From assembly GCA_944393695.1 (NCBI GenBank), contig CALYAY010000007.1, positions 14,266 through 78,265 of the forward strand: DNA of 64,000 nt. Reading direction: 5' to 3'. Origin of the DNA: an uncultured Alphaproteobacteria bacterium. Its GTDB lineage: Bacteria; Pseudomonadota; Alphaproteobacteria; RF32; CAG-239. Shown in pieces: positions 36,437-62,602 of this stretch. The position numbers were made by a program, and so were the translations under genes. Within the stretch, counting starts at the first letter, position 1. The number at the start of each line of letters is the position of its first letter. Below the pieces are notes generated by a model, which had not been told where the DNA came from, did not search any database, and worked only from the letters and a program-made list of their open reading frames with translations.

Positions 36437-36654
36437 AAGTGAAAAGTAAAGAGAATATTCTTTTTTTCAACAAGTTTTTTATTTTTTATCCCTAAATTAT
36501 TCAAATAAAACCGTATATTTTTTTATTTTCAAAAAGCGTTGTATAACTTTTGGGGCTTTATTGACGCTGTTTATTCCTCTTGTTAAGAATGTATTAATTA
36601 TTGGTGGGTCTGTGCCTTTGTGTGTATACAAAACAGGATGAATTGACAGGGTTT

Positions 36655-42600: not shown

Positions 42601-45600
42601 CAGGGAACTGCAACCAACAATAAGAACATTACTATCAGCGCCGACGGCGGAATCGGCATGTTTGCGGACGGGGGCAATATCGTCAACGGCACAAACGGAA
42701 CGATTAACCTGACGGAAGGCAACAACAGCACTTATGCCATGTATGTCGAAAGCGGAACAGCCGACAACCAGGGGAAAATCAACCTGAGCAAGGCGGATGT
42801 GGTCGGTATTTTTGCCGAATCGGGAACGGCGGAAAATAACGGCACGATTAACCTGAGCGGGGATAATTCCGTGGCCATGCGCGGCCGCGGTGATGCCCAA
42901 CTGACCAATAATTCCGGACGGACCTATGAAGTGACTTATGACAATCTGGCCAATTTTTCTACTGAAAGCGGCATTATTATCAGCGGCAATAATTCCATCG
43001 GTATGGAAGCCGGCGGAAGCTCTACGGTTACCAATGCCCGCAACGGCGTGATTACGGTTAACGGGCCGAACTCCAAAGGTATGGTGGCGCTGGGGGTGAC
43101 GCTCGGACAAGAAACAACCTACGGAACCGCGACTAATCAGGGAATTATCCTGGTGAACGATGCTTCCTCGGAAGCAATGTATGCCGACGGCGGTATCATT
43201 GTTAACGATACGGACGGCATGATTTATACCAACGGTGATTATGCGATGAACGTTCATGCCGGAACAGGAACAAACAAAGGTTATATCCGCAACGACAACG
43301 GTAATTTTACGGCCATGTATGCGGAAGCCGGTGAGATTGACAACCAGGGGCGTATTACGCTGAACGGCGATAATTCCAAAGGTATGGTGGTTAACGGTTC
43401 GGCCACAGCCAGCAACTCGCTGAAAACCAGCCGGATTGAGGTTAACGGTTCAAACTCCATAGGTATGCAGGCAATTAAAGGAACTGCGACAAATAATGGT
43501 GTTATTGACGTTAACGCAGAGGATTCAACATCGGTCAACATGCAGGCCGACGGCGGTACAATTATCAATTCATCAACGGGAACACTTTCTTCCAGTGCAG
43601 TGGACGGCGTGGTTATGCTGGTTAACGAAGGCAGCGGCGACAACCAGGGAACTATCAATCTTGATACCCAGGGAATTACCGCCATGCGGGCGAAAAACGG
43701 CACGATTACCAACAGCAACGCCATTATTATCAACGGGCCGGGGGCTACGGGTATGGAAGCCATCAACGGCACGGCGCAAAACGACGGTACGATTACGGTG
43801 GGCAGCAACGGCAGTAAAGGTTATGCCATTGCGGTGAACGGCAATGGTTCGGCGACCAATAACGAGAAAATTGTGGTTGAGGCAACGGATGCTTATGCCA
43901 TGTACACCGACGGCGGAAAAATTACCAACGCCTCGGGAGCGACAATTACCACCAACGGCTCTTCGGCCATGTATGTGAAAAACGGACAGTTTGAAAACAA
44001 CGGGGATATCAGCAATTCCAACAATAACTTCCATGCCATTCATATTGAAAACGGCACGGGACTGAACGCCGGCAGCATTACTCTTACCGGTAACAGCGCA
44101 GCGGCGATTTATGCCCTGCAATCGGAAAATCTGGAATCTACCGGTGATATTAATATGTCCGGCAGCAGCGCTATCGGTATTTATCTTGGTTCCGGCACGC
44201 TGACTTCCAGCAGTGAGATTAACATGGGATCCGGCACGAACAACTATGGTATTCAGGGCGGAACATCGGTTGTCATCAAAAACAGCGGTAATATTAGCGG
44301 TGGCACAAGCAAAGACGATGAAAATCCTAGCATCGAAGGAACCGGCTTTATTGGTATTAATGTAGAACAGGGAAATGTTACAAACAGCGGTGCAACGATT
44401 GAATTGAGCGGAGACAACTCTATCGGTATCAATGTGGGCAGCGGCGGCGCCGACAACAGCGGAACGATTTCGGTTAAAGCCAACAGCGGCACCATCGGCA
44501 TGCAGACACAATCGGGCACGCTGAACAACCTGGACGGCGGAACGATTGATGTGGTCGGCACAGGTTCTCGCGGAATGTATGCTTCCGGCAGCGGAAGCCT
44601 GAGCAACAGAGGAACTATTAATACCTCTGGTGAAGGTACAATCGGTATGTTAAGCAACGGCGGCAATGTCGGAAACCATGCTTCCCTGACAGTCAGCGGT
44701 ATTAACGCTGTCGGTATGTCCGGGGTCGGCGGAACCCTGACCAATGGTGAAAGCGGTATTATTGATGTTGACGGTTCGAATGCCATCGGCATGCAGATTA
44801 CGAACGGTGGTAAGGCCATTAACAACGGCAGTTTGAACGTTCAGGGACAATTCGGCATGTATGCCGCCAGAGGCAGTACGATTACCAACGGCGGAACTAT
44901 TACTCTGGAAAACGGTACTGTCGCCATGCGGGCCGTTGATACATCTTGGGCTTATAATAACGGCACTATTATTCTGGTCGACGGCGGTTCGTGGGGAATT
45001 TGCGATACAGACGGACACTGCGTAAATAAAGGTAAGGTTATTGATCAAACGTCGACTTCGACATATTCTCGGTCGGCACGATCCTTGTCAATGGGAACCA
45101 TGAATTTATCTCAAGGCATGGCTGTCGGTCTGGGCGGAAATTATACAGCCTCAGCCATTAAAGGAGACCTGGCTGTTTACGGAGATGCCACGCTGGAAGG
45201 GAGCAAAACGCAATATACGCTGGCCAATGCGTTGACCGCTTCGGATATCAGCAAGCTGAACGTTCGGGGAACGGCATGGTTTAATCAGGTCAGCATTGAA
45301 GAAAGCAATGATGCGGTTGATACGGATGCAATCGTTGATGAACTGAACAAAGCTCAGGCAGCGGAAGAGAATGCCGAAGAAACGGCAGACAACAGCGGTA
45401 CGGTGGTTGTCGCGTCCGCCCAAACGGCAGCCCCTGCCCTGTTGAGCGCTGCTCCGGCAACAGCCGAAGAAGAAAACGAGACTCAAAAGACCGATACCGA
45501 AACTTCCGGACTTGACGACCTGAAGAATTACAACATTACGGTCAGCAAGGGTGATTTGAACGAAATTCTTGCCGATGAAGAAGGCATTGAAGACAAGTCG

Positions 45601-46617
45601 CTTTTGGATAAGCTGGATGCGGCTTATGAGGCCGGGGCGGAATCCGACGTCTTTGACGAGATGAAGTATGCCTATACCAACAGTCAGCTTAATCATACGA
45701 TTGTGAAAGAACTCGGACTTGACTTCTTCGGCAACTTCGCCAAGCAAAATCTTGACGTTATCCGCAGCGCCAGCCGGCAGATAAATTCCTCTCTGTTTAA
45801 CAACAAGGAAACCAAAGACGTGCGCCTGACCGCCGGATATGACTTCAGCGGACGCAAACAGGACAGCGATATTTATCAGACCGACTACGAAGACAAGGCT
45901 TATTCCATCTTCGGCATGCTGGATAAGAAGTTTAACGAGAAATTCCGTTACGGTATCGGCGTGCTGCTGACCAGATATGAGAGCGAATATGACGATTCAA
46001 TGTCCAAGCGCAACGAGTTTATGGTTCAGGTTCTGACGCCGCTCATTGCCCAGTTTGACAAGACCAAACTGATTTCAGTCCCGCGGCTGGGTATCGGTTT
46101 CGGCGATTATGATCGTGTGGGTTCGAGCCAGCTGTATGACGGCGATACAACCAATTACTATTACGGTATTACCAACGAACTGCGCCATAATATGGACTTT
46201 GGCTGGTTCGGACTGGAACCGACGCTGGAATTCAACGTTTTGGGTATGTATCAAGACCGGATTAAGGAGGACGGCGTGGTCGACATATCGTCCAGCAACA
46301 ACCTGTCAATTGAAGGCGGTGTCGGCCTGTATGCCACCAAGCTGTTTGAATTCGGAGAAGCTCACTCGCTCAAGCTGAGAGCCGGCGGTACTTACTATCA
46401 CGAATTCGGCGATCCGTACAGAGCGCAAAAAGCTCGTCTGGCCGGAACCGATGTCAGCTATCGGATTAACAGCTACAACGCCAGCCGCGGACGCGGTGTG
46501 GTCAGCCTCCGTGCCGATTACAAATATAATCAGTTTGATCTGTACGGTGAGTTTACCAAGTTTATTGAAGAAAACGGCGGTTATGCCATTAATGCCGGTA
46601 TGGGATACAGATTTTAG
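36655..46617 (+). CDS. giant autotransporter adhesin with N-terminal ankyrin-like and TM segment
   Basis: ORF 36601-46617 (likely ATG 36655). Signal peptide; more than 2500 aa of N.G.I....GM/YGI beta-helix repeats; C-terminal about 280-aa beta-barrel ending GMGYRF. Confidence 0.9.
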   Translation: MLKKYLIKTKKVIVFITIYAFLLAGMPARAYLPPLSNAQLYTLAVQGNVRALRAAVQRGLNIDSLDRYGNTALCHSIIKRNYTAYNTLRAAGANPHHPCIQNIANGNYDSFVASRRVVPATANSRQAYAYVGDDDTIWTTGMWATAGAVLLGGIIALVLSSSGGGSDDFVPYETTDYSLAGVVGTERPDYPQDYPYNPIILLEQNGNTIVNGYYPDYNLGGDAQEGWVISNDASIDVEGEDGSTVSTPLTDLIDFNKSALEYSDYIQVAMKATYGSTANNGYAYDDPMYDVDRHYLISLKDNTTALAAFKDSFANNYSQINIDAKNGTIGMIGSINSTVTNQTAGQINMTFRGDKDNHSVIGMYADTNSTAINEGVIYGQAQSSDSIAGTLTGMRGQLLNQENPRTSKTNVTNRGTIKLEASANNRDIKTSLVGMGSWLEDDFLNGAMYLSRAGFVYLDNLGSIILNVALTGENGTYSANSEDGTSALLQGTGGIVGMRADGNTIATNDGLIQINIEDEGKNTVTNNHAGMQSVHGGKIVNNNTIEINGGEGGYGMLAVRGEGNNPEFDAVAEDVSTVMINNGNIIVNSENSYAMKSYTGGSSTNTGTITFNVEGVAIEQNTGTIANRSDIIMNAGGIGLKMNQKGDIINDLYNTDNSLGTIYIDNTLSNNVSSGEEGDSGEGSGDTSGQKESIGIYLEDGTVLNKGTIEMVNTKGATGNISYGIKAEKGSITSTNSISISDTYDSYGIAVKEGSIENSGAVSLLNTRGTLDHLGYALKNDYGLINNSGALTIVNKDNAYGIASGSGIVNNTGKIDISSNTGTSTALAYGIQSGSGSVTSSNDISISNANDSYGIDVKAGNVGNSGAITLTNTNGSVDNSGYGINSAQGDVSNSGVITIANKKEAYAITAANGYVTNEADLILNGNAQVLATTGYGIKSSRGGVTNKGNVTITNTTDSYGVSADNGDLTNTGSIDMHNTSGALEGLGYGLKTGTGNISNNAQISISNKNQAYALFTDTGRVVNDGSLIIAGNTGASTDAYGIKSTSGLVENNGNITITDTKNSYGVATENGDITNTGIIDMHSSGNALEELGYGLLGGKSNIVNKAAINIRNKNNAYAISNTSGTITNDAALTINGNENSLSALGYGIKGGFGAITNTAGITITNTKDSYGVWTENGNITNSGSISLADSSGSIEGIGYGIRTGHGFVNNTANISIKNKNEAYAISDESGDVDNDGTLTINGNKGVSTNAYGIKVASGAIDNSAQITITDTKNSYGVSTDNGDITNSGIINMYSSDGSLEETGYGLKAGTPGNGTDAEGSSSTGGGNITNTGEITIKNKNNAYAIATAGGTVLNQAALTINGNAGALSAQAYGIQSANGAVTNEGAITITNTQDSYAVSADNGDITNTGTILLQNSTGAAEGIGYGLKTGNGNIKNDATITIENKTEAYGIASTTQGNIDSNAAINITNSTGAAAGIAYGIKGGTGYVNSNSTINITNANEGYGIAVDNGVVTSNADITLTNTQQAQNKTSYGIKAEKGSITNNANIYMNVTGDLTAETGNDSGSFGIWGNEANITNSANSEIVFSLRGNGMHTVSGSNDNYGSIHMQKGGTGMSTDSGNAINHDSGTITIDDTGVGMASGNGKATNDGQINITGTMSTGMESAKDAENNGTILITGYNSTGMSVVAENGSIVNNKDIIINTSHNGLQNYGMYGSTGVYSRMNNKGNITITGRQYPTTENVAYGMYLDEGEAQNNGIITLNDIFGYGMYLGTGGTLDNYGTIALNYGGVGMGANGAVSEGKETVAMINHTGGTITTNGQYSYGMYGQGTATAWNDGTLTIGGEDSYGIYTTDGSGTNTSTITMSDANSVGMHSVNADSINKSTGTITIQGENSVGMQTNNGGTTDTSLNGSVNEGTINLEDTATGSTGMTVVDGSGKVKNKGTINVGSTSSSGMLANGDGGTVDNSGDITVTGENSYGMQATQGTATNNKNITISADGGIGMFADGGNIVNGTNGTINLTEGNNSTYAMYVESGTADNQGKINLSKADVVGIFAESGTAENNGTINLSGDNSVAMRGRGDAQLTNNSGRTYEVTYDNLANFSTESGIIISGNNSIGMEAGGSSTVTNARNGVITVNGPNSKGMVALGVTLGQETTYGTATNQGIILVNDASSEAMYADGGIIVNDTDGMIYTNGDYAMNVHAGTGTNKGYIRNDNGNFTAMYAEAGEIDNQGRITLNGDNSKGMVVNGSATASNSLKTSRIEVNGSNSIGMQAIKGTATNNGVIDVNAEDSTSVNMQADGGTIINSSTGTLSSSAVDGVVMLVNEGSGDNQGTINLDTQGITAMRAKNGTITNSNAIIINGPGATGMEAINGTAQNDGTITVGSNGSKGYAIAVNGNGSATNNEKIVVEATDAYAMYTDGGKITNASGATITTNGSSAMYVKNGQFENNGDISNSNNNFHAIHIENGTGLNAGSITLTGNSAAAIYALQSENLESTGDINMSGSSAIGIYLGSGTLTSSSEINMGSGTNNYGIQGGTSVVIKNSGNISGGTSKDDENPSIEGTGFIGINVEQGNVTNSGATIELSGDNSIGINVGSGGADNSGTISVKANSGTIGMQTQSGTLNNLDGGTIDVVGTGSRGMYASGSGSLSNRGTINTSGEGTIGMLSNGGNVGNHASLTVSGINAVGMSGVGGTLTNGESGIIDVDGSNAIGMQITNGGKAINNGSLNVQGQFGMYAARGSTITNGGTITLENGTVAMRAVDTSWAYNNGTIILVDGGSWGICDTDGHCVNKGKVIDQTSTSTYSRSARSLSMGTMNLSQGMAVGLGGNYTASAIKGDLAVYGDATLEGSKTQYTLANALTASDISKLNVRGTAWFNQVSIEESNDAVDTDAIVDELNKAQAAEENAEETADNSGTVVVASAQTAAPALLSAAPATAEEENETQKTDTETSGLDDLKNYNITVSKGDLNEILADEEGIEDKSLLDKLDAAYEAGAESDVFDEMKYAYTNSQLNHTIVKELGLDFFGNFAKQNLDVIRSASRQINSSLFNNKETKDVRLTAGYDFSGRKQDSDIYQTDYEDKAYSIFGMLDKKFNEKFRYGIGVLLTRYESEYDDSMSKRNEFMVQVLTPLIAQFDKTKLISVPRLGIGFGDYDRVGSSQLYDGDTTNYYYGITNELRHNMDFGWFGLEPTLEFNVLGMYQDRIKEDGVVDISSSNNLSIEGGVGLYATKLFEFGEAHSLKLRAGGTYYHEFGDPYRAQKARLAGTDVSYRINSYNASRGRGVVSLRADYKYNQFDLYGEFTKFIEENGGYAINAGMGYRF

Positions 46618-50859: not shown

Positions 50860-52704
50860 ATGATGAATAAGACTGTTCTCATGTTGTCGGTTTCGTGCAT
50901 GTCGTTTATTGCCGGGGCTGATTTGTGTTACGCTGGTTTTAATCCTTATGATACGCCTCCGGCGTTAAGCGCGGCCATGCTTAACTCACGTAATTCTACA
51001 CACACTTCACACCTCACGGCCGCTCATTTGTCTTCACTCGAAGATTTTGCCGAACTTACTCTCCCTGAAAACTCAGGGAGAGACAGAGAGGGTTTCAAAC
51101 CCTCCCTTACCCTCCCTAACTCTTTAGGGAGAGAAGAAGAAACAAATATGTCATCCTCGGATTCTTCTCTCCGTCATTCCCGGCTTGACCGAGGATCCAG
51201 GTTGAAAAAATCGGCTGCTTTATTTGACCTGGATACTCCGGTCAAGCCGGAGTATGACAGAGAAAAAAGGCCGGAGTATGACAGGTCGATCAAGGGTGAT
51301 AACAATAACCTTATCCAACTTGCGGCGGCGTGTTTTGTGACGGATACAACCGATTGTTCCGGTAATGAGTTTGTTGGGAATAATGCCGATGACGATAACG
51401 GTGGGGTGCCTCCCGACGGCGGAGATGATTATGAGTTGGATAATGACAAACGCTGCGAAGAAGAAGGATACACAAAAACCTCCTGTCCCGAGGGATATGA
51501 GGCGGTTAATTTCTGCCCGTATGATAATCATTATTTCGAATATTGTCGGGCACTTTGCCCCAGTGATTACGTCACCTGCGAGCTGCCTTATTACGGCATC
51601 GGCGAGGCGTGTGACGGAAAATATGCTTCCTGTAAATGCACACCCTGCGGCTCAGGTTATGATTATACCACCATTCCGGAGGGTTATGTTCAGGACGGCG
51701 AGGCTTGCTTAGACTGTGACGGCAAGACCAAATACAAAATTAAACCCAACCCGTGCGACGGCTTTATGGATTGTGGATCTGCCGGACCTGAAGCCGGAGC
51801 GGAAAGCTGTCTGTCGGGAACCGAAACCCTGTATGATAACTGCAAACCTTGTCCCAACGAATGTTCTCTGGATTCATGCCCGTCCCCTTACACCTGTAAG
51901 AAAGAGGAATGTTCCAACAAATACTGCAAAAACGGCTGTCAGTCAGGCTATGTCTGGAACGCAAGCGCCCAAACCTGCACCGAAGAATGCGACAGCAGCT
52001 ATAAATATGCCTGTGACGGTTCTGGAGAAACCGGATACGGCGAGGCCTGCAACGGGCTGTATAAGTCATGCTCCTGTACGGAGAATTGTTACACCTGGAG
52101 CAGTTCGTCGGGATGTTCTAATCCGTATCAATATACCTGTTCCGGTCCGGGAGCCAAACCCGGAAGCGGCAGCTGCAACGGTTTGTATTCATATTGTTCC
52201 TGTGAAGACAAAACAGAGGGAATATATTATTATGGTGACACTAAAGGATGTACTTGCAATGAGAATTATTGCTCACGTTATAATATCTATAAATACACCT
52301 GCAACGAGGAGCATGAGCTGCCGGACGAAAAATACCGGTGCTGCAACGACATGTATTCGCGATGCAAATGTGAAGAACCTTACGTATGGAGATATGAAAA
52401 TGGAAAATATGGTTGTTATTGTCCGGAAGAATATAAATACACCTGTTCGGCAGACAGCTGCGAATCTCCGGCGGGTTTGGTATGCGATAACAAATACAAA
52501 GAATGCAGTTGTTCTTGCGGATATGGTTGTGGAAAAGGAGATACTTTGGTAACAGAGGATTATAATACAGACGGAGATACTTCCTTTGCCATATTTAGCT
52601 GGAGCGACGATGATGGAGGATATTGCAGAGCAGACCGTTATTCCACAAATACAGGAAACACCACTGCTTTTGTTTGCATTGTCGGAGGGCAGGAAGATTG
52701 GTAG
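50860..52704 (+). CDS. Cys-rich secreted protein family, paralog P4 (no lectin-like C-terminus)
   Basis: Same leader; longest palindrome-derived insert (88 aa); Cys modules continue to the end. Confidence 0.9.
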   Translation: MMNKTVLMLSVSCMSFIAGADLCYAGFNPYDTPPALSAAMLNSRNSTHTSHLTAAHLSSLEDFAELTLPENSGRDREGFKPSLTLPNSLGREEETNMSSSDSSLRHSRLDRGSRLKKSAALFDLDTPVKPEYDREKRPEYDRSIKGDNNNLIQLAAACFVTDTTDCSGNEFVGNNADDDNGGVPPDGGDDYELDNDKRCEEEGYTKTSCPEGYEAVNFCPYDNHYFEYCRALCPSDYVTCELPYYGIGEACDGKYASCKCTPCGSGYDYTTIPEGYVQDGEACLDCDGKTKYKIKPNPCDGFMDCGSAGPEAGAESCLSGTETLYDNCKPCPNECSLDSCPSPYTCKKEECSNKYCKNGCQSGYVWNASAQTCTEECDSSYKYACDGSGETGYGEACNGLYKSCSCTENCYTWSSSSGCSNPYQYTCSGPGAKPGSGSCNGLYSYCSCEDKTEGIYYYGDTKGCTCNENYCSRYNIYKYTCNEEHELPDEKYRCCNDMYSRCKCEEPYVWRYENGKYGCYCPEEYKYTCSADSCESPAGLVCDNKYKECSCSCGYGCGKGDTLVTEDYNTDGDTSFAIFSWSDDDGGYCRADRYSTNTGNTTAFVCIVGGQEDW

Positions 52705-54969: not shown

Positions 54970-55185
54970 ATGAAAAACTTGAACGAAAATGCCATCAGAG
55001 AAGCTGCTTACTACATCTGGAAAAATGCCGGCTGCCCGGCCAATACCAGCCTGCAGGACTGGAATGCAGCTATTCAGCAGCTTTCTGCCACTAACAACAA
55101 AAATGTTAAGACTTCGGCTCTGAAGACTGTTTCTCTGAAGAAAAGTTCTTCCAAGACTTCAAAGTCTTCTAAAAAATCCAAATAA
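54970..55185 (+). CDS. DUF2934-like small protein with Lys/Ser-rich tail
   Basis: IREAAYYIW..AG.P.....DW..A..QL pattern; GGAG RBS; downstream terminator. Confidence 0.8.
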   Translation: MKNLNENAIREAAYYIWKNAGCPANTSLQDWNAAIQQLSATNNKNVKTSALKTVSLKKSSSKTSKSSKKSK

Positions 55186-55315
55186 ATTTTGGTTTTGGTT
55201 AATGAAAGTCTCTTCGAAAGGAGAGGCTTTTTTTTGATGATAAAATGAGTTTCAAATAAATAAAAAAAGTTCTTGCATTTATGAAGACATCGTTCTATAT
55301 AATATCTCAGAGATA

Positions 55316-55392
55316 CGGGATGTAGCGCAGCCTGGTAGCGCATTTGCATGGGGTGCAAGTGGTCGCTGGTTCGAATCCAGTCATCCCGACCA
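55316..55392 (+). tRNA. tRNA-Pro(GGG)
   Basis: CGGGATG...TTTGC-ATGGGGT-GCAAG...GGTTCGAATCC...CATCCCGACCA; 77 nt. Confidence 0.95.
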
Positions 55393-55576
55393 ACACTAAC
55401 AAGTCGTCAGAAATGGCGGCTTTTTCTTTATAAATCAGTAACTTAACTGAGTCCGTGTGACTGGTTTTAAAAACAGGCCTTTCGGGGTAGTTACACGGAC
55501 CATTATTTTCAAATTTCTTTATCTTTCAATAAGTTAGTCAAATTAGAATTTAATTTTTCTTTTTCCTGTTTTTTTA

Positions 55577-56578
55577 TTATGATAAAAAACTGTTTATTAA
55601 TTTACAAGCTTGTTCTTGTTTTTTTAGGAGGTCTTTACAATATAACGCACTATCTTCGTGCTTTTCCACTTTTAATAAAAGCAAAATGTATTTCCGAAAC
55701 AATTTAATATTTTCCGGTACAAAATTTATTTGCAATATTGCCACTTCACAAAACTCTTCAGCGATTAAATCATACAACTTTAAGATTTCATCAATATGAC
55801 ATTCCGTAAGTTTGTGAATAATACAAAAAATTTGTTTCTGTCTCAACGTTGCATATTTGCCAAAACATCGTCCTGTTTGCAAAGGATTGTAATTTACAAA
55901 AGGAATCTCAGTATCCGAAAAAAATTTTTTTATATTTCCTGTTTTGCTATATTTTTGATACAGACGTTCCCTGTTTTTCAAACTGATCAAAGAAGAAATA
56001 CTTTCGGAAATTCTTATCCCATACCCGTATATACGCCACATATCTTTGCGCATATACATTTTTACCAAACTAAAATATGCAGATATAAATTCATACCAAA
56101 TATCTAAATATCTGTTTTCATAAACAGCTTGACCGATCGGGTATGGAATTTCCATGTCAGAAATAAGATTATTTTTTTTTATTAAAAACTTTATCCCCCG
56201 ACTGATAACAGAAGCATAAAATTCAGGCAAAATTTGCCAATTTTTCTTCCATTCTTTCTCAGATAAGATTGCAAGATCAATTGTATGTCCGTCACATAAT
56301 AAATATTCAAGGTAAAGTTCTTGTCGGTAAGTCTGGCAGGATAGTAAAAATGCATCCTTTTCTTGAAAAATAATATGTCTGAAGTTATTTTGCACTATCA
56401 TAATATCTAAATCAGAATATTCATCGACATGCGACTGAGGCTGTATTAACGACCCATAAATAAACATATTCGTTATATTGTCATCGTTACCGCAATGTTC
56501 TTTCAAGCTATTAACAAATGCCTCTTCAGAGCTTGATAATTTACGGTTCAAACGGGAGGAAATTTTAACTTCAGACAT
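55577..56578 (-). CDS. Pol-beta superfamily nucleotidyltransferase (ANT(6)/Lnu-like N-terminal motif)
   Basis: FIYGS......DEYSDLDI motif with a third Asp in TIDL; helical C-terminal half; AT-rich. Confidence 0.75.
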   Translation of the reverse strand: MSEVKISSRLNRKLSSSEEAFVNSLKEHCGNDDNITNMFIYGSLIQPQSHVDEYSDLDIMIVQNNFRHIIFQEKDAFLLSCQTYRQELYLEYLLCDGHTIDLAILSEKEWKKNWQILPEFYASVISRGIKFLIKKNNLISDMEIPYPIGQAVYENRYLDIWYEFISAYFSLVKMYMRKDMWRIYGYGIRISESISSLISLKNRERLYQKYSKTGNIKKFFSDTEIPFVNYNPLQTGRCFGKYATLRQKQIFCIIHKLTECHIDEILKLYDLIAEEFCEVAILQINFVPENIKLFRKYILLLLKVEKHEDSALYCKDLLKKQEQACKLINSFLS

Positions 56579-56595
56579 ATTTTAGAGCTTTCCAA

Positions 56596-57507
56596 TTAGT
56601 TTTCTTTCCCTTTCATTTTGTCAATTAGTTTACTGAACCACGTTGTTTTGTTATCTGCCAAAAAGTAATTAACAGATTCCACATCCTTTTTTTCTTGTTT
56701 GGCTTGTGCTTGTTTTTGTTTTCGTTGATTTTTTTCTTCCTGTTTTTTTAGTTTTTGCTCAACTTGTATTCTGTGTTCCTTCTTTTTTATAACTTCTGAC
56801 TTCGTGTGCGTTAAATCAGTGTCCGCAAACAAATAAGTCCGGATAAACTGAGCTGTTTTTTTCTCAAAAGGGGACAGTTTATCAATCTCATCGTAGCTGC
56901 TTACATAAAAAGCCTTATAATAAACACTGCTCTCACGTGGTCCATAATTATAAACACAGCTCTCTGGTAAAAAACGAACATATTCACCATCTTCAGAACG
57001 TATAGACATTCTCTGTTGAGGAAACCTGTTGCCACCCATAAGTAAATTCACAGAAAAATATACGCGTTCTTCCACGTCATAAAAAGAAAGATCATGTAAT
57101 GTTTCAGCTGTTTTAGCAATTTCTATACTAATATACTTACCATTCTTTACGACATCATATATTAGATCTCCATTTTCATTGATAGATAAATAAACATTAT
57201 TCTTATTTATGTTTCCTTTGGTTACAAGTCCGATCCGTTTTGCATCTGGTTGTTTGCTGTTTAACTCATCAATCACAGATTTATCTGAAGATGACTGTTG
57301 TGAGACAACATCATCAATAAAACGTATCTTGCCTTCTTCCCATTTTTGCATATTTTTTGTGCGCTGTTTTTCATATGCTGCATATGCTTCCTGTTGTTTT
57401 TTTATCTGTTCTGCTGCTTGTCGTTTTTTTCTCAATTCTGCTGCCTGTTCTTCTGCTAGTTCTGCTGGGGTCATAAGATGACGAGGTTTAGATACATTAC
57501 TACCCAT
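56596..57507 (-). CDS. hypothetical protein, coiled-coil ends flanking a beta-rich core
   Basis: 303-aa ORF with RBS AGGAG; AT-rich; co-oriented with its neighbours. Confidence 0.75.
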   Translation of the reverse strand: MGSNVSKPRHLMTPAELAEEQAAELRKKRQAAEQIKKQQEAYAAYEKQRTKNMQKWEEGKIRFIDDVVSQQSSSDKSVIDELNSKQPDAKRIGLVTKGNINKNNVYLSINENGDLIYDVVKNGKYISIEIAKTAETLHDLSFYDVEERVYFSVNLLMGGNRFPQQRMSIRSEDGEYVRFLPESCVYNYGPRESSVYYKAFYVSSYDEIDKLSPFEKKTAQFIRTYLFADTDLTHTKSEVIKKKEHRIQVEQKLKKQEEKNQRKQKQAQAKQEKKDVESVNYFLADNKTTWFSKLIDKMKGKEN

Positions 57508-57563
57508 TTTTTTCTCCTTAACTATAAATTAATATCTTTTCTGTACTTGTATAATAGTTTTTA

Positions 57564-58457
57564 TTATGCTTTCTGCCGAAAATCACTCAGAGCCTTGGAT
57601 AACATCATATCTGCAATTTTAGAATTAGATTTTTCTTTTTGTTTTTCCTGATTTTTTGTCAAGATAAATTCTAACGCTTCGGCATGGTTTGGATAGCCGC
57701 CCCAAAAAGCGCTGCCGCCTTCTTTTCCTAAGCCGGCGCCGCCGACCCAGCCACCGAAATGATCATACAAAACTTCGGTTTGCTTGGGATCCCATGGTGC
57801 CGGACGCTCGCCGGTTTTATTGCCCTGCAAAGCTCGGCAAATATCTTCAGGCCCAAAATAATTGACCTCTCCGTCGGCCGAAAAAATGGCAATATTCTGC
57901 TGTTTATCAGGATCAAATAATCTGTCTGTAACCGTCGCCGTTTTGGAATGAGCCATTTTAACAATGGTTACGCCACAAACTTCCCGTGCACCAGCAATTG
58001 CTTCTTCCGCTTGTTTTTCCTGTTCAGGCGTAATGCCCTGTGATGCTCGGTCTCTATATCGTATTGATTCAATTTCTTCTTTTGTTGCACCCATAGCCAA
58101 CATGGCTGGAATATAGCCGCTGTCATTAGCTGCTACCAACAACATTTCTCTTGTCGGCTTAACGTCCAAAAGCTCACAAACCTGCAAAATAGAAGCCGGT
58201 TTAGAAGCATTTTCATTGTGATGATCCACATTAATCGTATTCTCTGGGACAGGCGAATCAACAGCCAATTCGACAATGACCGGGGTCTTGCCATTTTCTG
58301 CAACTTTTTCAATTTCTTCTCCATATTTGGAAGTTGACGCTCCCCATTTTAAATTAGCATCAGAATATGTCACACCTTCTTTATCCAAAAGCGTTCTGAT
58401 TGTCGACATTTCCAAATCTGCACCACCTAAGAAAAAATGTAAATTATTTTTATCCAT
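57564..58457 (-). CDS. DHH-family phosphodiesterase resembling type III CRISPR-associated NrN
   Basis: FFLGGADLEM, IVEL..D, VDHHNE, LVAANDSGYIPAM..GA..EEI..IR..DR..QG and DRL, in the order I recall for Bacteroides fragilis NrN. Confidence 0.75.
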   Translation of the reverse strand: MDKNNLHFFLGGADLEMSTIRTLLDKEGVTYSDANLKWGASTSKYGEEIEKVAENGKTPVIVELAVDSPVPENTINVDHHNENASKPASILQVCELLDVKPTREMLLVAANDSGYIPAMLAMGATKEEIESIRYRDRASQGITPEQEKQAEEAIAGAREVCGVTIVKMAHSKTATVTDRLFDPDKQQNIAIFSADGEVNYFGPEDICRALQGNKTGERPAPWDPKQTEVLYDHFGGWVGGAGLGKEGGSAFWGGYPNHAEALEFILTKNQEKQKEKSNSKIADMMLSKALSDFRQKA

Positions 58458-58807
58458 GAGAGTTTTCCTTCATTGTTTGTTTATTTTAATTTGCCTTGTA
58501 CGCGTTACAAGACAAATATATTAATATATAATAATGTGAGTCAACGATAAAATCAACTAAAATTTTATAACTCTCGCACTTTGTTTTTCGCCAAAGAAGA
58601 TAAATTGAGTAAAAAATATACGAAGGAAAGCCTGGCGTCAGGGAGAAGAGACAAACGGAAGTATGCCGGTAAGCTCCGAAAGCCTGAGCCGGGATGATGG
58701 GGCGGAGTATGACCGCACAAAATATTTTGTCGATATTTACATCTTGATTTTTTTATTTGTTTTGTTATTGTAATGACATTTAATTCAATTATTTTAAGGT
58801 AAGTTAA

Positions 58808-60346
58808 ATGTCAAATAAATTAAAAGTAATGTTTTCTACCCATGGTCTGGTGGAAGGTGATTTTGGTTATGCGCTTGATGAAAACGGCTTTCCAACCGAG
58901 GAAATTGTTTCTAAAAAGGTTATTACCGGGCAGGATACGGGAGGTCAGGTATATTATGTTAAAGCTTTGGCCGCAAGTTCCACAAATTATGATGTTGATC
59001 TGGTGACGCGGCGGGTTGATCAGCGTATTTGTCCGCAATTCGGCGGCACCGAAGCGGGAAAAGTGAACAACACAAATTATGACGTTGAAGTGCAATGGCA
59101 TGAGAATCCGGTTATTCGCAGCCGGGTTTTGCGTATTCCGGCGGGCGGAAACTTCTCTTTTGTTCCGAAGGAGGAAATCGTGCCCCTGCTGCCGGAGCTG
59201 GTTGATAATCTTTACAAATTTTATAAAAAAGAAAATTCACTCGGTGATATTGAGGTGGTTGAAGGACATTACCGCGACGGAATGCTGGCTGCCGACATGT
59301 TATGCGAAAGGATTGAAAAAGAAACCGGCCGCCGCCCGATTATGCTGGTTACAAGCCATTCTCTGGGACATAAAAAATATGAGCGCAATCTGCCTTTATA
59401 TCAGGCCGGCGCAATCAGTCAGGAAGAGTGGAACTGGCATAATTTTGAGGATCGGATTGCCCAGGAAAAATATGCATTCGACAAAGCAGATATTATTATT
59501 GCCACCTCTCCCGACGAACAGCGCCGCCTGGTTGCGGAGCCGTATTCTGTCCGCGAAGATAAAATTACGGTTATTCCGCCCGGATATAACAGCCGGATTT
59601 TTACGCCGCTTAGTCTGCAGGAACTTAATAAGCTGAAATACCGTTTTACTTATAACGATTTGAACGGAAGAGAACAAACCGTTAACCTGACCGACATGCA
59701 GGTTGTTTCTTCTTTGGGACGCGTGGTTCGTGACAAGGGTTTCTGCGAGCTTGCAAATTCCATGGTGGAAATTATGAAAGATAATCCGTCCGCCGTTTAT
59801 ATGGTCAGCGGCGAAAACGGAAATCCGGTGACCGACGAATGCAAGGAGATTTTGAGCGGGTATGAAAACAGAGTTATCTTTATGCCTTCGCTGAACCAAA
59901 AGCAAATGGCCCGGGTTTACAACGTGTCGTCAACTTTTGTCATGTCCAGCCTGAACGAGGCTTTCGGCATGGTGCCGATTGAAGCCATGGGCTGCAAGAC
60001 ATCGGTCGTTGTCGGACGCAGCGGCTTTAATGATTTTGCCCATTGCGCTGATATTCGCGAAGATCAGGATTTTAGCAAGTCTATCGGTTTGTATGCGCCG
60101 TCGCAGGAGACTGACCGCTGGCGTCAGGTTAAGGCGCTGAGACTGCTGCTTGACAATGATCCGCTGCGTAAGCAAATTGCCGAAAATGGTTATGATTATG
60201 TTCGGAATAACCTGACCTGGGAAAAAATTTCGGAGCAAAAAGACCAGATTGTGCAAGAAGTTTTGAAAAAGCGTAACCATCGTGAAGTTAAAGGTTTCGG
60301 CAATATCAAAAATATCATGCTTCTTAATCGTGAAAAGGTTATTTAA
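58808..60346 (+). CDS. GT4 glycosyltransferase, sucrose-phosphate/sucrose synthase-like
   Basis: STHG, DTGGQVYYV, VDLVTR, GHY.DG, TSHSLG..K, IPPG and EAFGMVPIEAM; no C-terminal HAD domain. Confidence 0.82.
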   Translation: MSNKLKVMFSTHGLVEGDFGYALDENGFPTEEIVSKKVITGQDTGGQVYYVKALAASSTNYDVDLVTRRVDQRICPQFGGTEAGKVNNTNYDVEVQWHENPVIRSRVLRIPAGGNFSFVPKEEIVPLLPELVDNLYKFYKKENSLGDIEVVEGHYRDGMLAADMLCERIEKETGRRPIMLVTSHSLGHKKYERNLPLYQAGAISQEEWNWHNFEDRIAQEKYAFDKADIIIATSPDEQRRLVAEPYSVREDKITVIPPGYNSRIFTPLSLQELNKLKYRFTYNDLNGREQTVNLTDMQVVSSLGRVVRDKGFCELANSMVEIMKDNPSAVYMVSGENGNPVTDECKEILSGYENRVIFMPSLNQKQMARVYNVSSTFVMSSLNEAFGMVPIEAMGCKTSVVVGRSGFNDFAHCADIREDQDFSKSIGLYAPSQETDRWRQVKALRLLLDNDPLRKQIAENGYDYVRNNLTWEKISEQKDQIVQEVLKKRNHREVKGFGNIKNIMLLNREKVI

Positions 60347-60562: not shown

Positions 60563-62602
60563 ATGATGAAACTAAGTAAAGCATTAATGCTGTCGGTTTC
60601 CGGACTGATGTTTACGTCCGGCGGCAGTTTGGCTTATGCCGGTATTTCAACGCATGATTTAACATCTTTCAACTCTCCGGGGACGGTTACATTTGTCCAC
60701 ACACACATCACACACGCCTCTGCCCCGGAAGAGCGTTTGTTGTCTTCACTTGAAGATTTTGATAAGGATAATTTATTTGTCACCCTCACCCGGGGCTTGC
60801 GCTCCGACCTCTCTCCTCAAGTGCGAGGTGGAGAAGGGACTCTGTCATCCTCGGACTTGATCCGAGGATCCAGATGGATTAAAACAGCAAATTTATTTGA
60901 CCTGGATACTCCAATCAAGTTGGAGTATGACAGAGAAAAGGGGCCGGAGTATGACAGGACAACCAAGAGTGATAACAAACTCATTCAACTTGCGGCGACC
61001 TGTTTTGTAACCGACACTTCAGCTTGTTCAGGCAATGAGTTTGGCGGGAACAATGGCGATGATGAAGGTCACGGCACTCCCGGCGGACCGAATGACGATT
61101 ATGACCTCGACAATGGGGAGCGCTGTCGTCAGGAAGGATATAACCAAACATCCTGTCCTGAAGGACAGGAACCTGTCAACATCTGCCCCTATGACAGTGA
61201 TTATTTCGAGAAATGTGTTTCTTCCTGTCCTACAAATTATGTAACCTGTGAAGTCCCATATTATGGGGTTGGTGAGGCCTGCGACGGGAAATACGCTTCT
61301 TGTAAAAAAGACACCGAACGTGCCTGTAAAGAATTAAACCCCGGATATGTTAACAGTTGCGGCACAGGGCAGCGGCTTAGCGACGACCGTTGTTCTTATG
61401 ACAACACCTATGGCACCTGCTGCAACACCTGTGCAGGTTACGATTATACCAGCATTCCGGATGGCTATGTCCAGAATGGAAACAGCTGTACCGGCTGCGA
61501 CGGACAGGAATATTTCAAAATAAAACCCAATTCCTGCGACGGTTTTCTGAATTGCGGCTCCATGGGACCGGAAGCCGGGGCCAAAACCTGTCTTTCGGGG
61601 ACAACTACCCTGTATGACAACTGCAAATCTTGTCCTTATGAATGTTCGCTGAGCTCATGCCCGTCACCTTACACCTGTAAGAAAGAGGAATGTTCAAATA
61701 TGTATTGCAAAACCGGCTGCCAAAGCGGCTATGACTGGAATGCAAGCACCAAGACTTGTACAAAGCAATGTGCCTATGAATGCACTTACAGCAGCTGCCC
61801 CTCACCTTTCACCTGCCGCTATGAAGACTGCTCGGGCAAATACTGCAAAACCGGCTGCCAAAGCGGCTATGACTGGAATGCAAGCTCCAAGACTTGCACA
61901 AAGCAATCCACGCCGCTGCCCAGCGACAGCAATTGCAGTTGTTTCGGGACAAGAACCGAATCTGACGGCTGCGGCGGGACGAGAACGGTTTGTAATGTTC
62001 CGGATTTGAAATATCTGTATTCTGACAAAACGCTGAGCGCTGATATTATTTCGGGCAAAACAATTGTCGGTATCAGTATTGAACCGGAAAACCGACTGGC
62101 CGTCGGCCTCGGATATACTCTGGACGAATGGGGCGGATACGGAACGGATATTCCGACACTGGAAAATATTTCCTGGGTTGGCAGAGGAGTTTATGTCTGC
62201 GGCGAACGGTCCATGTATGAGGTCAGAGACGGCAAAGCAAATACCCAGACAATTCTGGCTTATGGCAAGAGCAGCGGCATCTCGTATCCGGCGGCAGAAT
62301 GGGTGAATTCCTATCAACCGACGGGATGCAGCGCCGGAAGCTGGTGCGGAGCCGGAAACTGGTTCATCCCCTCGACCTGGCAGGCCTTTGCCTATTTCAA
62401 CAACCGGGATAAAATCCTCTCCATGCTGGAGGCGATTAACCAACTTCCTGATGACTGGATGTATACACAAGATGGTTTTTATACTATGACTTCTAATGAA
62501 ATCAGTGCGACCGAGCCCGGGTTCCTCTATTTCAACCAAGGAGCAATGGCTCGCAGCGATAAAACGTTTCAACAGGTTTCTTTGCCGTTTATTGAATATT
62601 AA
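60563..62602 (+). CDS. Cys-rich secreted protein family, paralog P5, with C-terminal DUF1566/C-type-lectin-like domain
   Basis: Diverged leader; SSLEDF-insert-IQLAATCF; Cys modules with a 46-aa tandem duplication; YLYSD..GKANT..YPAA..WFIPS..TSNE..K. Confidence 0.9.
   Translation: MMKLSKALMLSVSGLMFTSGGSLAYAGISTHDLTSFNSPGTVTFVHTHITHASAPEERLLSSLEDFDKDNLFVTLTRGLRSDLSPQVRGGEGTLSSSDLIRGSRWIKTANLFDLDTPIKLEYDREKGPEYDRTTKSDNKLIQLAATCFVTDTSACSGNEFGGNNGDDEGHGTPGGPNDDYDLDNGERCRQEGYNQTSCPEGQEPVNICPYDSDYFEKCVSSCPTNYVTCEVPYYGVGEACDGKYASCKKDTERACKELNPGYVNSCGTGQRLSDDRCSYDNTYGTCCNTCAGYDYTSIPDGYVQNGNSCTGCDGQEYFKIKPNSCDGFLNCGSMGPEAGAKTCLSGTTTLYDNCKSCPYECSLSSCPSPYTCKKEECSNMYCKTGCQSGYDWNASTKTCTKQCAYECTYSSCPSPFTCRYEDCSGKYCKTGCQSGYDWNASSKTCTKQSTPLPSDSNCSCFGTRTESDGCGGTRTVCNVPDLKYLYSDKTLSADIISGKTIVGISIEPENRLAVGLGYTLDEWGGYGTDIPTLENISWVGRGVYVCGERSMYEVRDGKANTQTILAYGKSSGISYPAAEWVNSYQPTGCSAGSWCGAGNWFIPSTWQAFAYFNNRDKILSMLEAINQLPDDWMYTQDGFYTMTSNEISATEPGFLYFNQGAMARSDKTFQQVSLPFIEY

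What the first reader, a model, noticed from the sequence alone, without database searches (positions are those of the whole stretch)
55577..58457. CRISPR-independent NrN-like phosphodiesterase + unknown protein + nucleotidyltransferase: candidate new nucleotide-signalling or defence module
Seen: three co-oriented genes (gaps 56 and 17 bp) in an AT-rich block beside tRNA-Pro. The first has FFLGGADLEM / DHHNE / LVAANDSGYIPAM..IR..DR..QG; the last has a Pol-beta GS..D.YSDLD motif. Known (recalled, not searched): this motif series matches NrN, the DHH nuclease that degrades the SAM-AMP second messenger in CorA-associated type III CRISPR systems of Bacteroides fragilis, and Pol-beta NTases include signal synthases (CD-NTases) and toxin-modifying enzymes. 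No cas10, corA or array is in the window. Inference: a writer (NTase), eraser (NrN) and effector arrangement, or a stand-alone SAM-AMP eraser. The alternative is an unrelated aminoglycoside/lincosamide NTase lying next to it by chance.
Basis: partly seen in the sequence, partly recalled or inferred. Interest (0 to 1): 0.75.

Follow-up and report, generated by a model that had tools for sequence, protein, structure and literature searches.

The report
Stand-alone NrN phosphodiesterase islet at tRNA-Pro
A small horizontally acquired gene islet in a chicken-gut alphaproteobacterium carries a CRISPR-independent relative of the SAM-AMP-degrading enzyme NrN next to an orphan protein and an antibiotic-type nucleotidyltransferase, but the three genes are not a conserved module.

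Summary
Three same-strand genes (gaps 56 and 17 bp) lie in a low-GC 3.25-kb insertion at the 3' end of tRNA-Pro(GGG).

- Gene 1 is a true NrN homolog (solved NrN, E 1.5e-34). It keeps all 39 positions conserved across the family.
- The genome has no cas10, CRISPR-type corA, cas1 or array.
- Gene 3 is a divergent ANT(6)/Lnu-type nucleotidyltransferase by profile and fold, not a CD-NTase.
- Gene 2 is a coiled-coil orphan.

The writer-eraser-effector reading is not supported by comparison. Gene 3 relatives were found in 0 of 282 other genomes of the order. They were also in none of 983 ORFs around 77 NrN loci. The trio recurs only in strains of the same or a sister species, where gene 3 is often frameshifted at an A9 tract and gene 2 diverges fastest.

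NrN itself belongs to a large CRISPR-free clade of gut Alphaproteobacteria and Patescibacteria. That clade is usually followed by, or fused to, a KH-domain protein. One Patescibacteria group instead pairs it with a second, divergent PolyA_pol-type NTase. My searches found this clade described nowhere.

Best reading: a mobile NrN cassette with lineage-specific cargo.

The parts
55316..55392 (+). tRNA-Pro(GGG), the insertion site of the islet
   Evidence: ARAGORN and Rfam tRNA at 60.5 bits. A 96% identical tRNA-Pro(GGG) lies convergent to an NrN+KH cassette in L039.
55394..58641 (.). Islet of about 3.25 kb, inserted relative to congeners and carrying the three genes
   Evidence: In G099, G034 and G107 the tRNA-Pro is followed within about 160 bp by sequence matching window 58642-58708. 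One contig of run X13 joins 55394 to 58642, skipping 3247 bp, but its shorter side is only 21 letters. GC is low.
55577..56578 (-). Gene 3: divergent ANT(6)/Lnu-type Pol-beta nucleotidyltransferase, 333 aa
   Evidence: PF04439 at 25.1 bits against a cut-off of 22. AadS model at 23.6 bits against a cut-off of 450. Foldseek best match 8vxb ANT(6)-Ib at E 2e-4, then LinB, ANT(4') and AadK; the model has pLDDT 66.5. The G42-S43...D56-x-D58 motif and D101 are invariant in 4 of 4 relatives.
56172..56180 (-). A9 tract (T9 on the + strand) in gene 3 codons 133-136; the frameshift site in other strains
   Evidence: Located. The out-of-frame tails of P0159, P0163 and P0193 equal the window DNA read with one A fewer; the C-terminal pieces are P0158, P0160 and P0165.
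56596..57507 (-). Gene 2: orphan protein of 303 aa with an N-terminal coiled coil, a beta-rich centre and a long C-terminal helix; no hydrophobic segment
   Evidence: No family in Pfam, NCBIfam, PADLOC or PHROGs. No PDB sequence hit. No informative fold match. Model pLDDT 59.4. Four relatives in 5.8 billion proteins. Maximum KD19 hydropathy 0.44.
57564..58457 (-). Gene 1: stand-alone NrN-family DHH phosphodiesterase, 297 aa
   Evidence: It keeps 39 of 39 family-wide conserved positions. In the tree it is sister to L036 inside a 54-row group with no CRISPR-linked row.
58515..58544 (-). Promoter-like site (TTGACT-18-TATATT) upstream of gene 1
   Evidence: Consensus scan, 10 of 12 matches. This is a pattern match only.
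58642..58708 (.). Conserved element E marking the far border of the islet
   Evidence: Alignment A6 with G099, G034 and G107 (two copies). In those genomes E is followed by a 21-25 nt repeat of the tRNA-Pro 3' end. No Rfam family matches it.

Best explanation
The three genes are cargo of a small, integrase-less islet of about 3.25 kb inserted at the 3' end of tRNA-Pro(GGG) in an uncultured chicken-gut alphaproteobacterium. The first gene is an intact NrN-family DHH phosphodiesterase from a CRISPR-free clade. That clade behaves as the conserved head gene of a mobile cassette. The slot downstream of NrN holds different, lower-GC genes in different genomes, most often a KH-domain protein in the closest relatives. 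Here the slot holds a fast-evolving coiled-coil orphan and a divergent ANT(6)/Lnu-type nucleotidyltransferase, both confined to this lineage. Inferred mechanism: NrN hydrolyses the 3'-5' phosphodiester of SAM-AMP or a closely similar adenylate conjugate without any Cas10. The NTase O-adenylylates a small-molecule hydroxyl group. The two enzymes need not share a substrate, and the trio is not a conserved signalling module. Shown here: homology, insertion, distribution and decay of the NTase. Inferred: substrates, operon status and mobility.
For: The window protein keeps 39 of 39 positions conserved at 85% or more in both the 21 CRISPR-group rows and the 54 CRISPR-free rows, and no position is conserved but different. 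It is as similar to the CRISPR-group NrNs (median 41.9%) as the two CRISPR groups are to each other (37.7%). No Cas10, CRISPR-type CorA, Cas1, SMODS or array was found in the genome. Insertion is supported. An NrN+KH cassette sits convergent to a 96% identical tRNA-Pro(GGG) in another genus. A resolvase lies beside NrN in L037, L038 and L045. Lineage restriction: gene 3 is in 1 of 283 genomes of the order, and gene 2 and gene 3 are each in 1 of 101 of the family, against 15 of 101 for NrN. The gene 3 profile hits 0 of 983 ORFs at 77 NrN loci and only 11 hits in 1.84 billion representatives. Downstream partners are lower in GC than NrN in relatives too. Gene 3 decays: 8 of the 15 listed members (of 36) of its 90% cluster are pieces of 135-192 aa broken at the A9 tract, while NrN stays at 297 aa in 13 of 15 listed members. 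Gene 3 has the ANT fold and family.
Against: The three genes are tightly spaced on one strand, and contigs from three studies keep them contiguous. They stay together down to about 90% NrN identity, so a functional link is not excluded. No direct repeat of the tRNA 3' end and no integrase were found in the window, so mobility is inferred from comparison only. An independent NrN-NTase pairing exists in Patescibacteria: a second, divergent PolyA_pol-type NTase in 5 of 5 genomes searched. This hints that NTases may be real partners of CRISPR-free NrNs. Co-location in strains was inferred from equal contig lengths, not from the contigs themselves. The frameshifted copies could reflect phase variation rather than decay.
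Confidence: 0.55

Rival explanations
1. NrN plus an interchangeable partner. The CRISPR-free NrN is one half of a conserved two-part system, either defence or counter-defence. Its second half varies: a KH-domain protein, a small Zn-ribbon protein, the 164-201 aa family, and here gene 2. Gene 3 would be a passenger.
For: NrN is followed on the same strand by a KH-domain protein in 8 loci; the family is present in 9 of the 73 loci with an NrN ORF. It is fused to KH in L089 and L054. A Zn-ribbon protein follows in 9 loci. Gene 2 is the most divergent of the three between strains: 82.7% identity where NrN is 98.3% and gene 3 is 98.2%. The cassettes sit among housekeeping genes at different places.
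Against: Gene 2 shows no credible homology to any recurrent partner: hhalign against the 164-aa family gives probability 6%, and against the KH family 0.1%. No partner has an assigned function, no defence-family hit was found for the partners, and there is no phage or plasmid copy.
Confidence: 0.2
2. The writer-eraser(-effector) module proposed by the first reader. The ANT-like NTase adenylylates SAM or a similar metabolite to make a SAM-AMP-like signal, NrN erases it, and gene 2 responds to it.
For: ANT-type enzymes transfer AMP to a hydroxyl group of a small molecule, which is the reaction type that makes SAM-AMP (established chemistry of ANT enzymes; SAM-AMP chemistry from passages of PMC10600005). 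The NrN core is fully conserved. A different NTase pairs with NrN in one Patescibacteria clade. The gene spacing is tight.
Against: No co-occurrence was found outside one lineage. Gene 3 is frameshifted in many strains while NrN stays intact. Gene 3 has no CD-NTase or Cas10 signature; the PADLOC cyclase hits at E 2e-3 cover only residues 5-86. Gene 2 has no membrane segment or known sensor domain. Among the 126 further neighbours of CRISPR-free NrNs that I scanned, of 194 within two genes, none is an NTase.
Confidence: 0.12
3. Gene 3 is simply an aminoglycoside or lincosamide resistance enzyme lying beside an unrelated NrN.
For: The Pfam streptomycin adenylyltransferase family is passed. The best fold matches are ANT(6)-Ib, LinB and ANT(4'). 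The distant relatives P0198-P0201 are ANT(6)-like. The habitat is chicken gut.
Against: It scores 23.6 bits against a 450-bit cut-off for the resistance equivalog and shares about 13% identity with ANT(6)-Ib. No copy was found on plasmids or phages. The family is tiny. Frequent frameshifts argue against strong selection.
Confidence: 0.08
4. NrN here is a housekeeping nanoRNase or pGpG hydrolase serving RNA or c-di-GMP turnover.
For: The neighbours of the CRISPR-free clade have an RNA theme: KH domain, DEAH helicase and PolyA_pol-type NTase. The genome encodes a PAS-GGDEF cyclase. The nearest structural relatives of NrN are the pGpG and pApA hydrolases PggH and GdpP (passage of PMC10600005).
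Against: The distribution is patchy: 15 of 101 genomes of the family, with no strong match in the 7 congeners searched with the protein. The gene lies in an inserted islet. B. fragilis NrN does not cleave pApA (passage of PMC10600005).
Confidence: 0.05

Closest known systems
NrN of the Bacteroides fragilis type III-B CorA CRISPR system (SAM-AMP phosphodiesterase; PDB 9lq9-9lqc)
   Same: Clear homology over residues 8-202 (E 1.5e-34). The DHH motif that was mutated to inactivate BfrNrN (D85/H86/H87; passage of PMC10600005) is present here as D78-H79-H80. All 39 family-wide conserved positions are kept.
   Different: There is no cas10, CRISPR-type corA, cas1 or array in the genome. The protein falls in a 54-row group with no CRISPR-linked row. 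It has a longer C-terminal part with FGGW..GG and FWGG motifs that fits the PADLOC model C3a116 better than DHH_CorA. Its usual neighbour is a KH-domain protein, not CorA.
ANT(6) / Lnu / ANT(4') antibiotic nucleotidyltransferases (Pfam PF04439 and relatives)
   Same: An N-terminal Pol-beta NTase domain with G-S...D-x-D, followed by a helical C-terminal domain. The Pfam cut-off is passed. The best fold matches are 8vxb, 3jyy, 6nmk and 2pbe.
   Different: About 13% identity. The score is far below the NCBIfam resistance cut-offs. The protein is 333 aa with an extra C-terminal helix. The family is tiny (11 hits in 1.84 billion representatives). The substrate is unknown.
tRNA-targeted genomic islands and integrative elements
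   Same: Inserted directly after the 3' end of a tRNA, low in GC, absent from congeners, and marked by a conserved end element E.
   Different: There is no integrase and no recognisable direct repeat of the tRNA end in the window, and the islet is only 3.25 kb. It is probably a decayed remnant.

Membership tests
NrN family (DHH phosphodiesterase that degrades SAM-AMP) | Sequence homology to characterised or solved NrN | tested here: met
   PDB 9lq9 NrN at E 1.5e-34 over residues 8-202. PADLOC DHH_CorA at 6.7e-57.
NrN family (DHH phosphodiesterase that degrades SAM-AMP) | DHH catalytic motif and the conserved core residues | tested here: met
   D78-H79-H80 are present. 39 of 39 conserved positions are kept.
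NrN family (DHH phosphodiesterase that degrades SAM-AMP) | Genomic association with CorA and a type III CRISPR locus | tested here: not met
   No Cas10: the only hit is a PAS-GGDEF protein. No CRISPR-type CorA, no Cas1 and no array. The one CorA is a 339-aa Mg-transporter type on another contig.
NrN family (DHH phosphodiesterase that degrades SAM-AMP) | [quoted passage not shown] | not testable with these tools
   This needs an enzyme assay.
ANT(6)/Adenyl_transf (PF04439) | Profile match above the curated cut-off | tested here: met
   25.1 bits against 22, residues 18-181. This is marginal. All 3 database relatives also carry PF04439.
ANT(6)/Adenyl_transf (PF04439) | Match to a resistance equivalog (AadS, ANT(6), Lnu) | tested here: not met
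   AadS at 23.6 bits against a cut-off of 450.
ANT(6)/Adenyl_transf (PF04439) | Two-domain ANT fold | tested here: inconclusive
   Best Foldseek match ANT(6)-Ib at E 2e-4 with TM 0.40/0.44 and rmsd 8.5. The model has pLDDT 66.5 from a 4-sequence alignment.
ANT(6)/Adenyl_transf (PF04439) | Adenylylation of an aminoglycoside or lincosamide | not testable with these tools
   This needs an enzyme assay.
CD-NTase / CBASS-type signal synthase | Profile match to a CD-NTase or SMODS family | tested here: not met
   Only N-terminal Pol-beta motif hits: PADLOC Cyclase at E 1.9e-3 and 15.7 bits over residues 5-86. There is no NCBIfam or Pfam CD-NTase hit. SMODS is not found in the genome.
CD-NTase / CBASS-type signal synthase | cGAS/DncV-like fold | tested here: inconclusive
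   No such chain ranks among the top matches, though OAS2 appears at E 0.42. The model is of moderate confidence.
tRNA-integrated mobile element | Insertion relative to relatives at a tRNA 3' end | tested here: met
   plus a joint that is weak because its shorter side is 21 letters.
tRNA-integrated mobile element | Flanking direct repeat of the tRNA end, and an integrase | tested here: not met
   No repeat was found in window 55200-58900, and the islet holds only the three ORFs. Repeats of 21-25 nt are present in the congeners G099 and G107.

The most novel reading that the evidence does not exclude
SAM-AMP-type signalling, or a related adenylate-conjugate signal, exists outside CRISPR. On this reading the large CRISPR-free NrN clade consists of erasers paired with non-Cas10 synthases. 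In this window the synthase would be an ANT-fold NTase that adenylylates SAM or a similar metabolite. In Patescibacteria it would be a second, minimal PolyA_pol-type NTase. KH-domain or coiled-coil proteins would act as the responders.
Probability: 0.1. Interest if true: 0.85.

Novelty: new variant of a known kind. Interest (0 to 1): 0.48.

Why it matters
NrN is so far known only as an accessory enzyme of CorA-type type III CRISPR systems, where its requirement is still unexplained (passages of PMC10600005 and PMC12255297). This analysis finds a large clade that keeps every conserved NrN position yet lives without CRISPR. The clade occurs in gut Alphaproteobacteria and Patescibacteria, on small mobile cassettes, usually with a KH-domain protein. 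That makes two questions testable: whether SAM-AMP or a similar molecule is made and used outside CRISPR, and whether these enzymes are counter-defence or RNA-turnover factors. The particular NTase pairing that drew attention is a lineage-specific accident of cargo, so it should not be taken as a new defence system without biochemical evidence.

Tried and rejected
**Complex prediction.** It was never accepted because the queue was full, so no result exists.

**Gene 2 function.**
- Foldseek against PDB gave nothing at E 0.001 or better.
- The VIA wide search gave only long-helix matches at Z 6.8 or less.
- The ESM Atlas gave scores of 0.82 or less.
- PHROGs gave nothing.
- hhalign of gene 2 against the 164-aa neighbour family gave probability 6%.
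- hhalign of gene 2 or gene 3 against the KH family gave probability below 1%.

**Mobile-element carriers.**
- NrN and gene 3 have no match in the phage records.
- Gene 3 has no match in the plasmid records.
- The only plasmid matches to NrN are NrN-CorA fusions of Arcobacter and a Haliscomenobacter gene.
- None of the three genes was found in IMG/VR.
- Gene 3 and gene 2 were not found in JGI metagenome contigs.

**Cas10 in the family.** PF22335 rang in 51 of 101 genomes, but at 31.7 bits or less, in ORFs of 552-776 aa. It also rang in the E. coli control. The window genome's own copy is a PAS-GGDEF protein, so I read these hits as GGDEF proteins. Only the window genome's copy was checked.

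**Other checks.**
- The KH-domain partner family was not found in the window's genome.
- Rfam found no family for element E.
- Contigs of the RNA-library run X13 cover parts of all three genes at depth 2.4-3.4. The tool warns that DNA can be present in such libraries, so expression is not shown.
- Earlier findings of the scan returned nothing.
- One script crashed and was completed.
- One paper search was malformed and was resent.
Full report
**Observation.** One search confirms three minus-strand ORFs: 58457..57564 (297 aa, gene 1), 57507..56596 (303 aa, gene 2) and 56578..55577 (333 aa, gene 3). tRNA-Pro(ggg) lies at 55316-55392 on the + strand. The three genes have GC of 0.427, 0.343 and 0.305, against 0.459 for the window and 0.461 for the genome. 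They also have the three lowest GC3 values of the 40 ORFs picked in the window. None has a hydrophobic segment; the maximum 19-residue Kyte-Doolittle mean is 1.13.

**Gene 1 is an NrN.**
- Pfam and NCBIfam have no model for it.
- PADLOC gives C3a116 at 2.8e-67 and DHH_CorA at 6.7e-57.
- The solved NrN chains 9lq9-9lqc match at E 1.5e-34 over residues 8-202.
- The DHH triad whose mutation inactivates B. fragilis NrN (passage of PMC10600005) is D78-H79-H80 here.

I aligned 76 NrN domains from 73 public loci plus the window. Thirty-nine positions are conserved at 85% or more, with the same residue, in both the 21 rows of the CRISPR-linked groups and the 54 CRISPR-free rows. No position is conserved but different between the two sets, and the window protein has all 39. 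It is as similar to the CRISPR-group NrNs (median 41.9%) as the two CRISPR groups are to each other (37.7%). From this I infer, without showing it, that the substrate is SAM-AMP or something very close.

**CRISPR independence.** The window's genome is 1.75 Mb in 38 contigs and 100% complete by marker genes.
- It holds a single NrN copy.
- The only Csm1 or Cas10-palm hit is a PAS-GGDEF diguanylate cyclase.
- No CRISPR-type CorA was found.
- The one CorA is a 339-aa Mg-transporter type on another contig.
- No Cas1 and no SMODS were found.
- A simple exact-repeat script found no array. Arrays can be missed in drafts.

**Gene 3 is an ANT-type nucleotidyltransferase.**
- Pfam PF04439 (streptomycin adenylyltransferase) scores 25.1 bits against a cut-off of 22. 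Polbeta falls below its cut-off.
- The AadS resistance model scores 23.6 bits against a cut-off of 450.
- An AlphaFold model (pLDDT 66.5, built on a 4-sequence alignment) matches ANT(6)-Ib best (8vxb, E 2e-4, TM 0.40/0.44). LinB, ANT(4') and AadK follow.
- The nearest Atlas clusters are NTP_transf_2/DUF4037/Adenyl_transf proteins.
- A profile search of 1.84 billion representatives found only 11 hits. The distant ones are sub-threshold ANT(6)-like proteins.
- The G-S...D-x-D motif and a third Asp are invariant in the family.
- Nothing points to a CD-NTase. The PADLOC cyclase hits at E 2e-3 cover only the Pol-beta motif.

**Gene 2 has no assignable family or fold.** Nothing was found. The model (pLDDT 59.4) shows an N-terminal coiled coil, a beta-rich centre and a long C-terminal helix.

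**Co-occurrence.**
- In 101 genomes of the family, NrN matched in 15. Eight other genomes have hits at 42-83% identity and six have weak hits at 28-38%. Gene 2 and gene 3 matched only in the window's own genome.
- In all 283 genomes held for the order, the gene 3 profile matched only the window's own genome.
- Around 77 NrN loci from species representatives, the gene 3 HMM hit 0 of 983 ORFs. The gene 2 HMM gave one weak hit (E 1.2e-4) that hhalign does not support (probability 6%).
- A Pfam scan of 126 further neighbours, of 194 within two genes of CRISPR-free NrNs, found no other NTase.

**Within the lineage.** Cluster members of NrN, gene 2 and gene 3 share the same longest-contig lengths: 66992, 88410, 45695, 54004, 35120 and others. 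From this I infer that they are co-located in other assemblies.
- On the 66992-bp contig, identities to the window are NrN 98.3%, gene 2 82.7% and gene 3 98.2%.
- On the 45695-bp contig, NrN is 89.9%, gene 2 is 82.3%, and gene 3 is in pieces.
- Contigs from three studies of mostly chicken-gut metagenomes bridge tRNA-Pro, gene 3, gene 2 and NrN. They also show an indel variant in the coiled coil of gene 2.
- Eight of the 15 listed members (of 36) of the gene 3 cluster are fragments of 135-192 aa.
- Their alignment shows a break at residue 135 or so. The out-of-frame tail equals the window DNA read with one A fewer in the A9 tract at 56172-56180.

So the NTase is often inactivated, or phase-varied, while NrN stays intact.

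**The islet.** In the congeners G099, G034 and G107, tRNA-Pro is followed within about 160 bp by an element that matches window 58642-58708. A 21-25 nt repeat of the tRNA 3' end follows that element. In the window, 3.25 kb holding all three genes lies between the tRNA and that element. One contig joins 55394 to 58642, but its shorter side is only 21 letters, so this is weak. The window itself has no tRNA-end repeat and no integrase. In another genus (L039), an NrN+KH cassette lies convergent to a 96% identical tRNA-Pro(GGG). A resolvase flanks NrN in L037, L038 and L045.

**The clade.** In a quick maximum-likelihood tree, all 14 rows with Cas or CorA neighbours, or a CorA fusion, fall in two basal groups. 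A 54-row group (SH-aLRT 93) has none. The window is sister to L036 (85% identity) inside a 17-row clade (support 99) in which 10 rows have a KH-domain neighbour. Recurrent neighbours among the 73 loci with an NrN ORF were these:
- A KH-domain protein of 550-1095 aa in 9 loci, 8 of them downstream on the same strand, plus fusions in L089 and L054.
- A small Zn-ribbon protein in 9 loci.
- A PolyA_pol-head NTase, divergent upstream, in 6 Patescibacteria-type loci.
- DEAH helicase and TrmB neighbours (4 loci each).
- A Mvol_0529-like protein in 5 loci.

The Patescibacteria NTase is a second, divergent copy (35-39 bits, 329-342 aa) that sits beside a canonical CCA enzyme in 5 of 5 genomes searched. 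The genes downstream of NrN are lower in GC than NrN in the relatives as well. The KH family was not found in the window's genome.

**Literature.** I read passages of PMC10600005, PMC12255297, PMC11229360 and 10.1101/270033. They describe NrN only with CorA-type type III loci. Searches for NrN with SAM-AMP, DHH, crystal structure, KH domain and accessory proteins listed no paper on a CRISPR-free NrN clade. I did not open any supplementary tables.

**Verdict.** The NrN call and its CRISPR independence are right. The three-gene signalling module is not supported. The best reading is a mobile NrN cassette with lineage-specific cargo (confidence 0.55). Three rivals stay open: an NrN-plus-variable-partner system (0.2), the writer-eraser idea (0.12), and a plain resistance NTase (0.08). 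The most interesting result is the CRISPR-free NrN clade itself.

Noticed in passing
L122:2989-3098, L123:3027-3055, L124:2327-2718 (congeners); window 58642-58708: A conserved element of about 70-130 nt follows tRNA-Pro in congeners and ends in a 21-25 nt repeat of the tRNA 3' end. G107 has two tandem copies. It looks like the end of an integrative element that targets tRNA-Pro. No Rfam family matches it.
   Followed up: partly
L035-L046, L055, L097 (for example L036:9030-11384); fusions L089:332-3157 and L054:8910-11180: A family of 550-1095 aa proteins carries one eukaryote-type (type I) KH domain and long charged coiled coils. It is the commonest neighbour of CRISPR-free NrN and is sometimes fused to it. 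No other domain was recognised.
   Followed up: partly
L063, L066, L069, L070, L074, L091 (for example L063:6446-7468): Patescibacteria-type genomes of 0.6-0.9 Mb keep a second, divergent PolyA_pol-head NTase (329-342 aa) divergently next to NrN, in addition to a canonical CCA-adding enzyme.
   Followed up: partly
L054:7965-14426: One roe-deer gut alphaproteobacterial contig has four NrN-like ORFs (272, 756, 130 and 249 aa) within 7 kb. One of them follows a KH domain in the same reading frame.
   Followed up: no
window 56172-56180: An A9 tract inside the NTase gene is the site of a -1 frameshift in many strain variants. This could be phase variation or decay.
   Followed up: partly
window 57490-57507 (gene 2 N-terminus): Gene 2 begins MGSNVSK, which resembles a eukaryotic N-myristoylation signal (recalled consensus, not tested). 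The motif is not kept in the variants P0126-P0128.
   Followed up: no
window 50860-52704 and 60563-62602: Two paralogous Cys-rich proteins (614 and 679 aa) have signal-peptide-like starts and repeated C-x-x-C-rich modules. They flank the region on either side.
   Followed up: no
window 36601-46617: A single ORF of 3338 aa on the + strand.
   Followed up: no
window 58808-60346: The glycosyltransferase next to the islet also passes Pfam GT4-conflict (PF20706, 29.3 bits against a cut-off of 26). It scores lower on that model than on the general GT1 family.
   Followed up: no
window 54970-55185: A small DUF2934 protein (71 aa) lies just upstream of tRNA-Pro.
   Followed up: no
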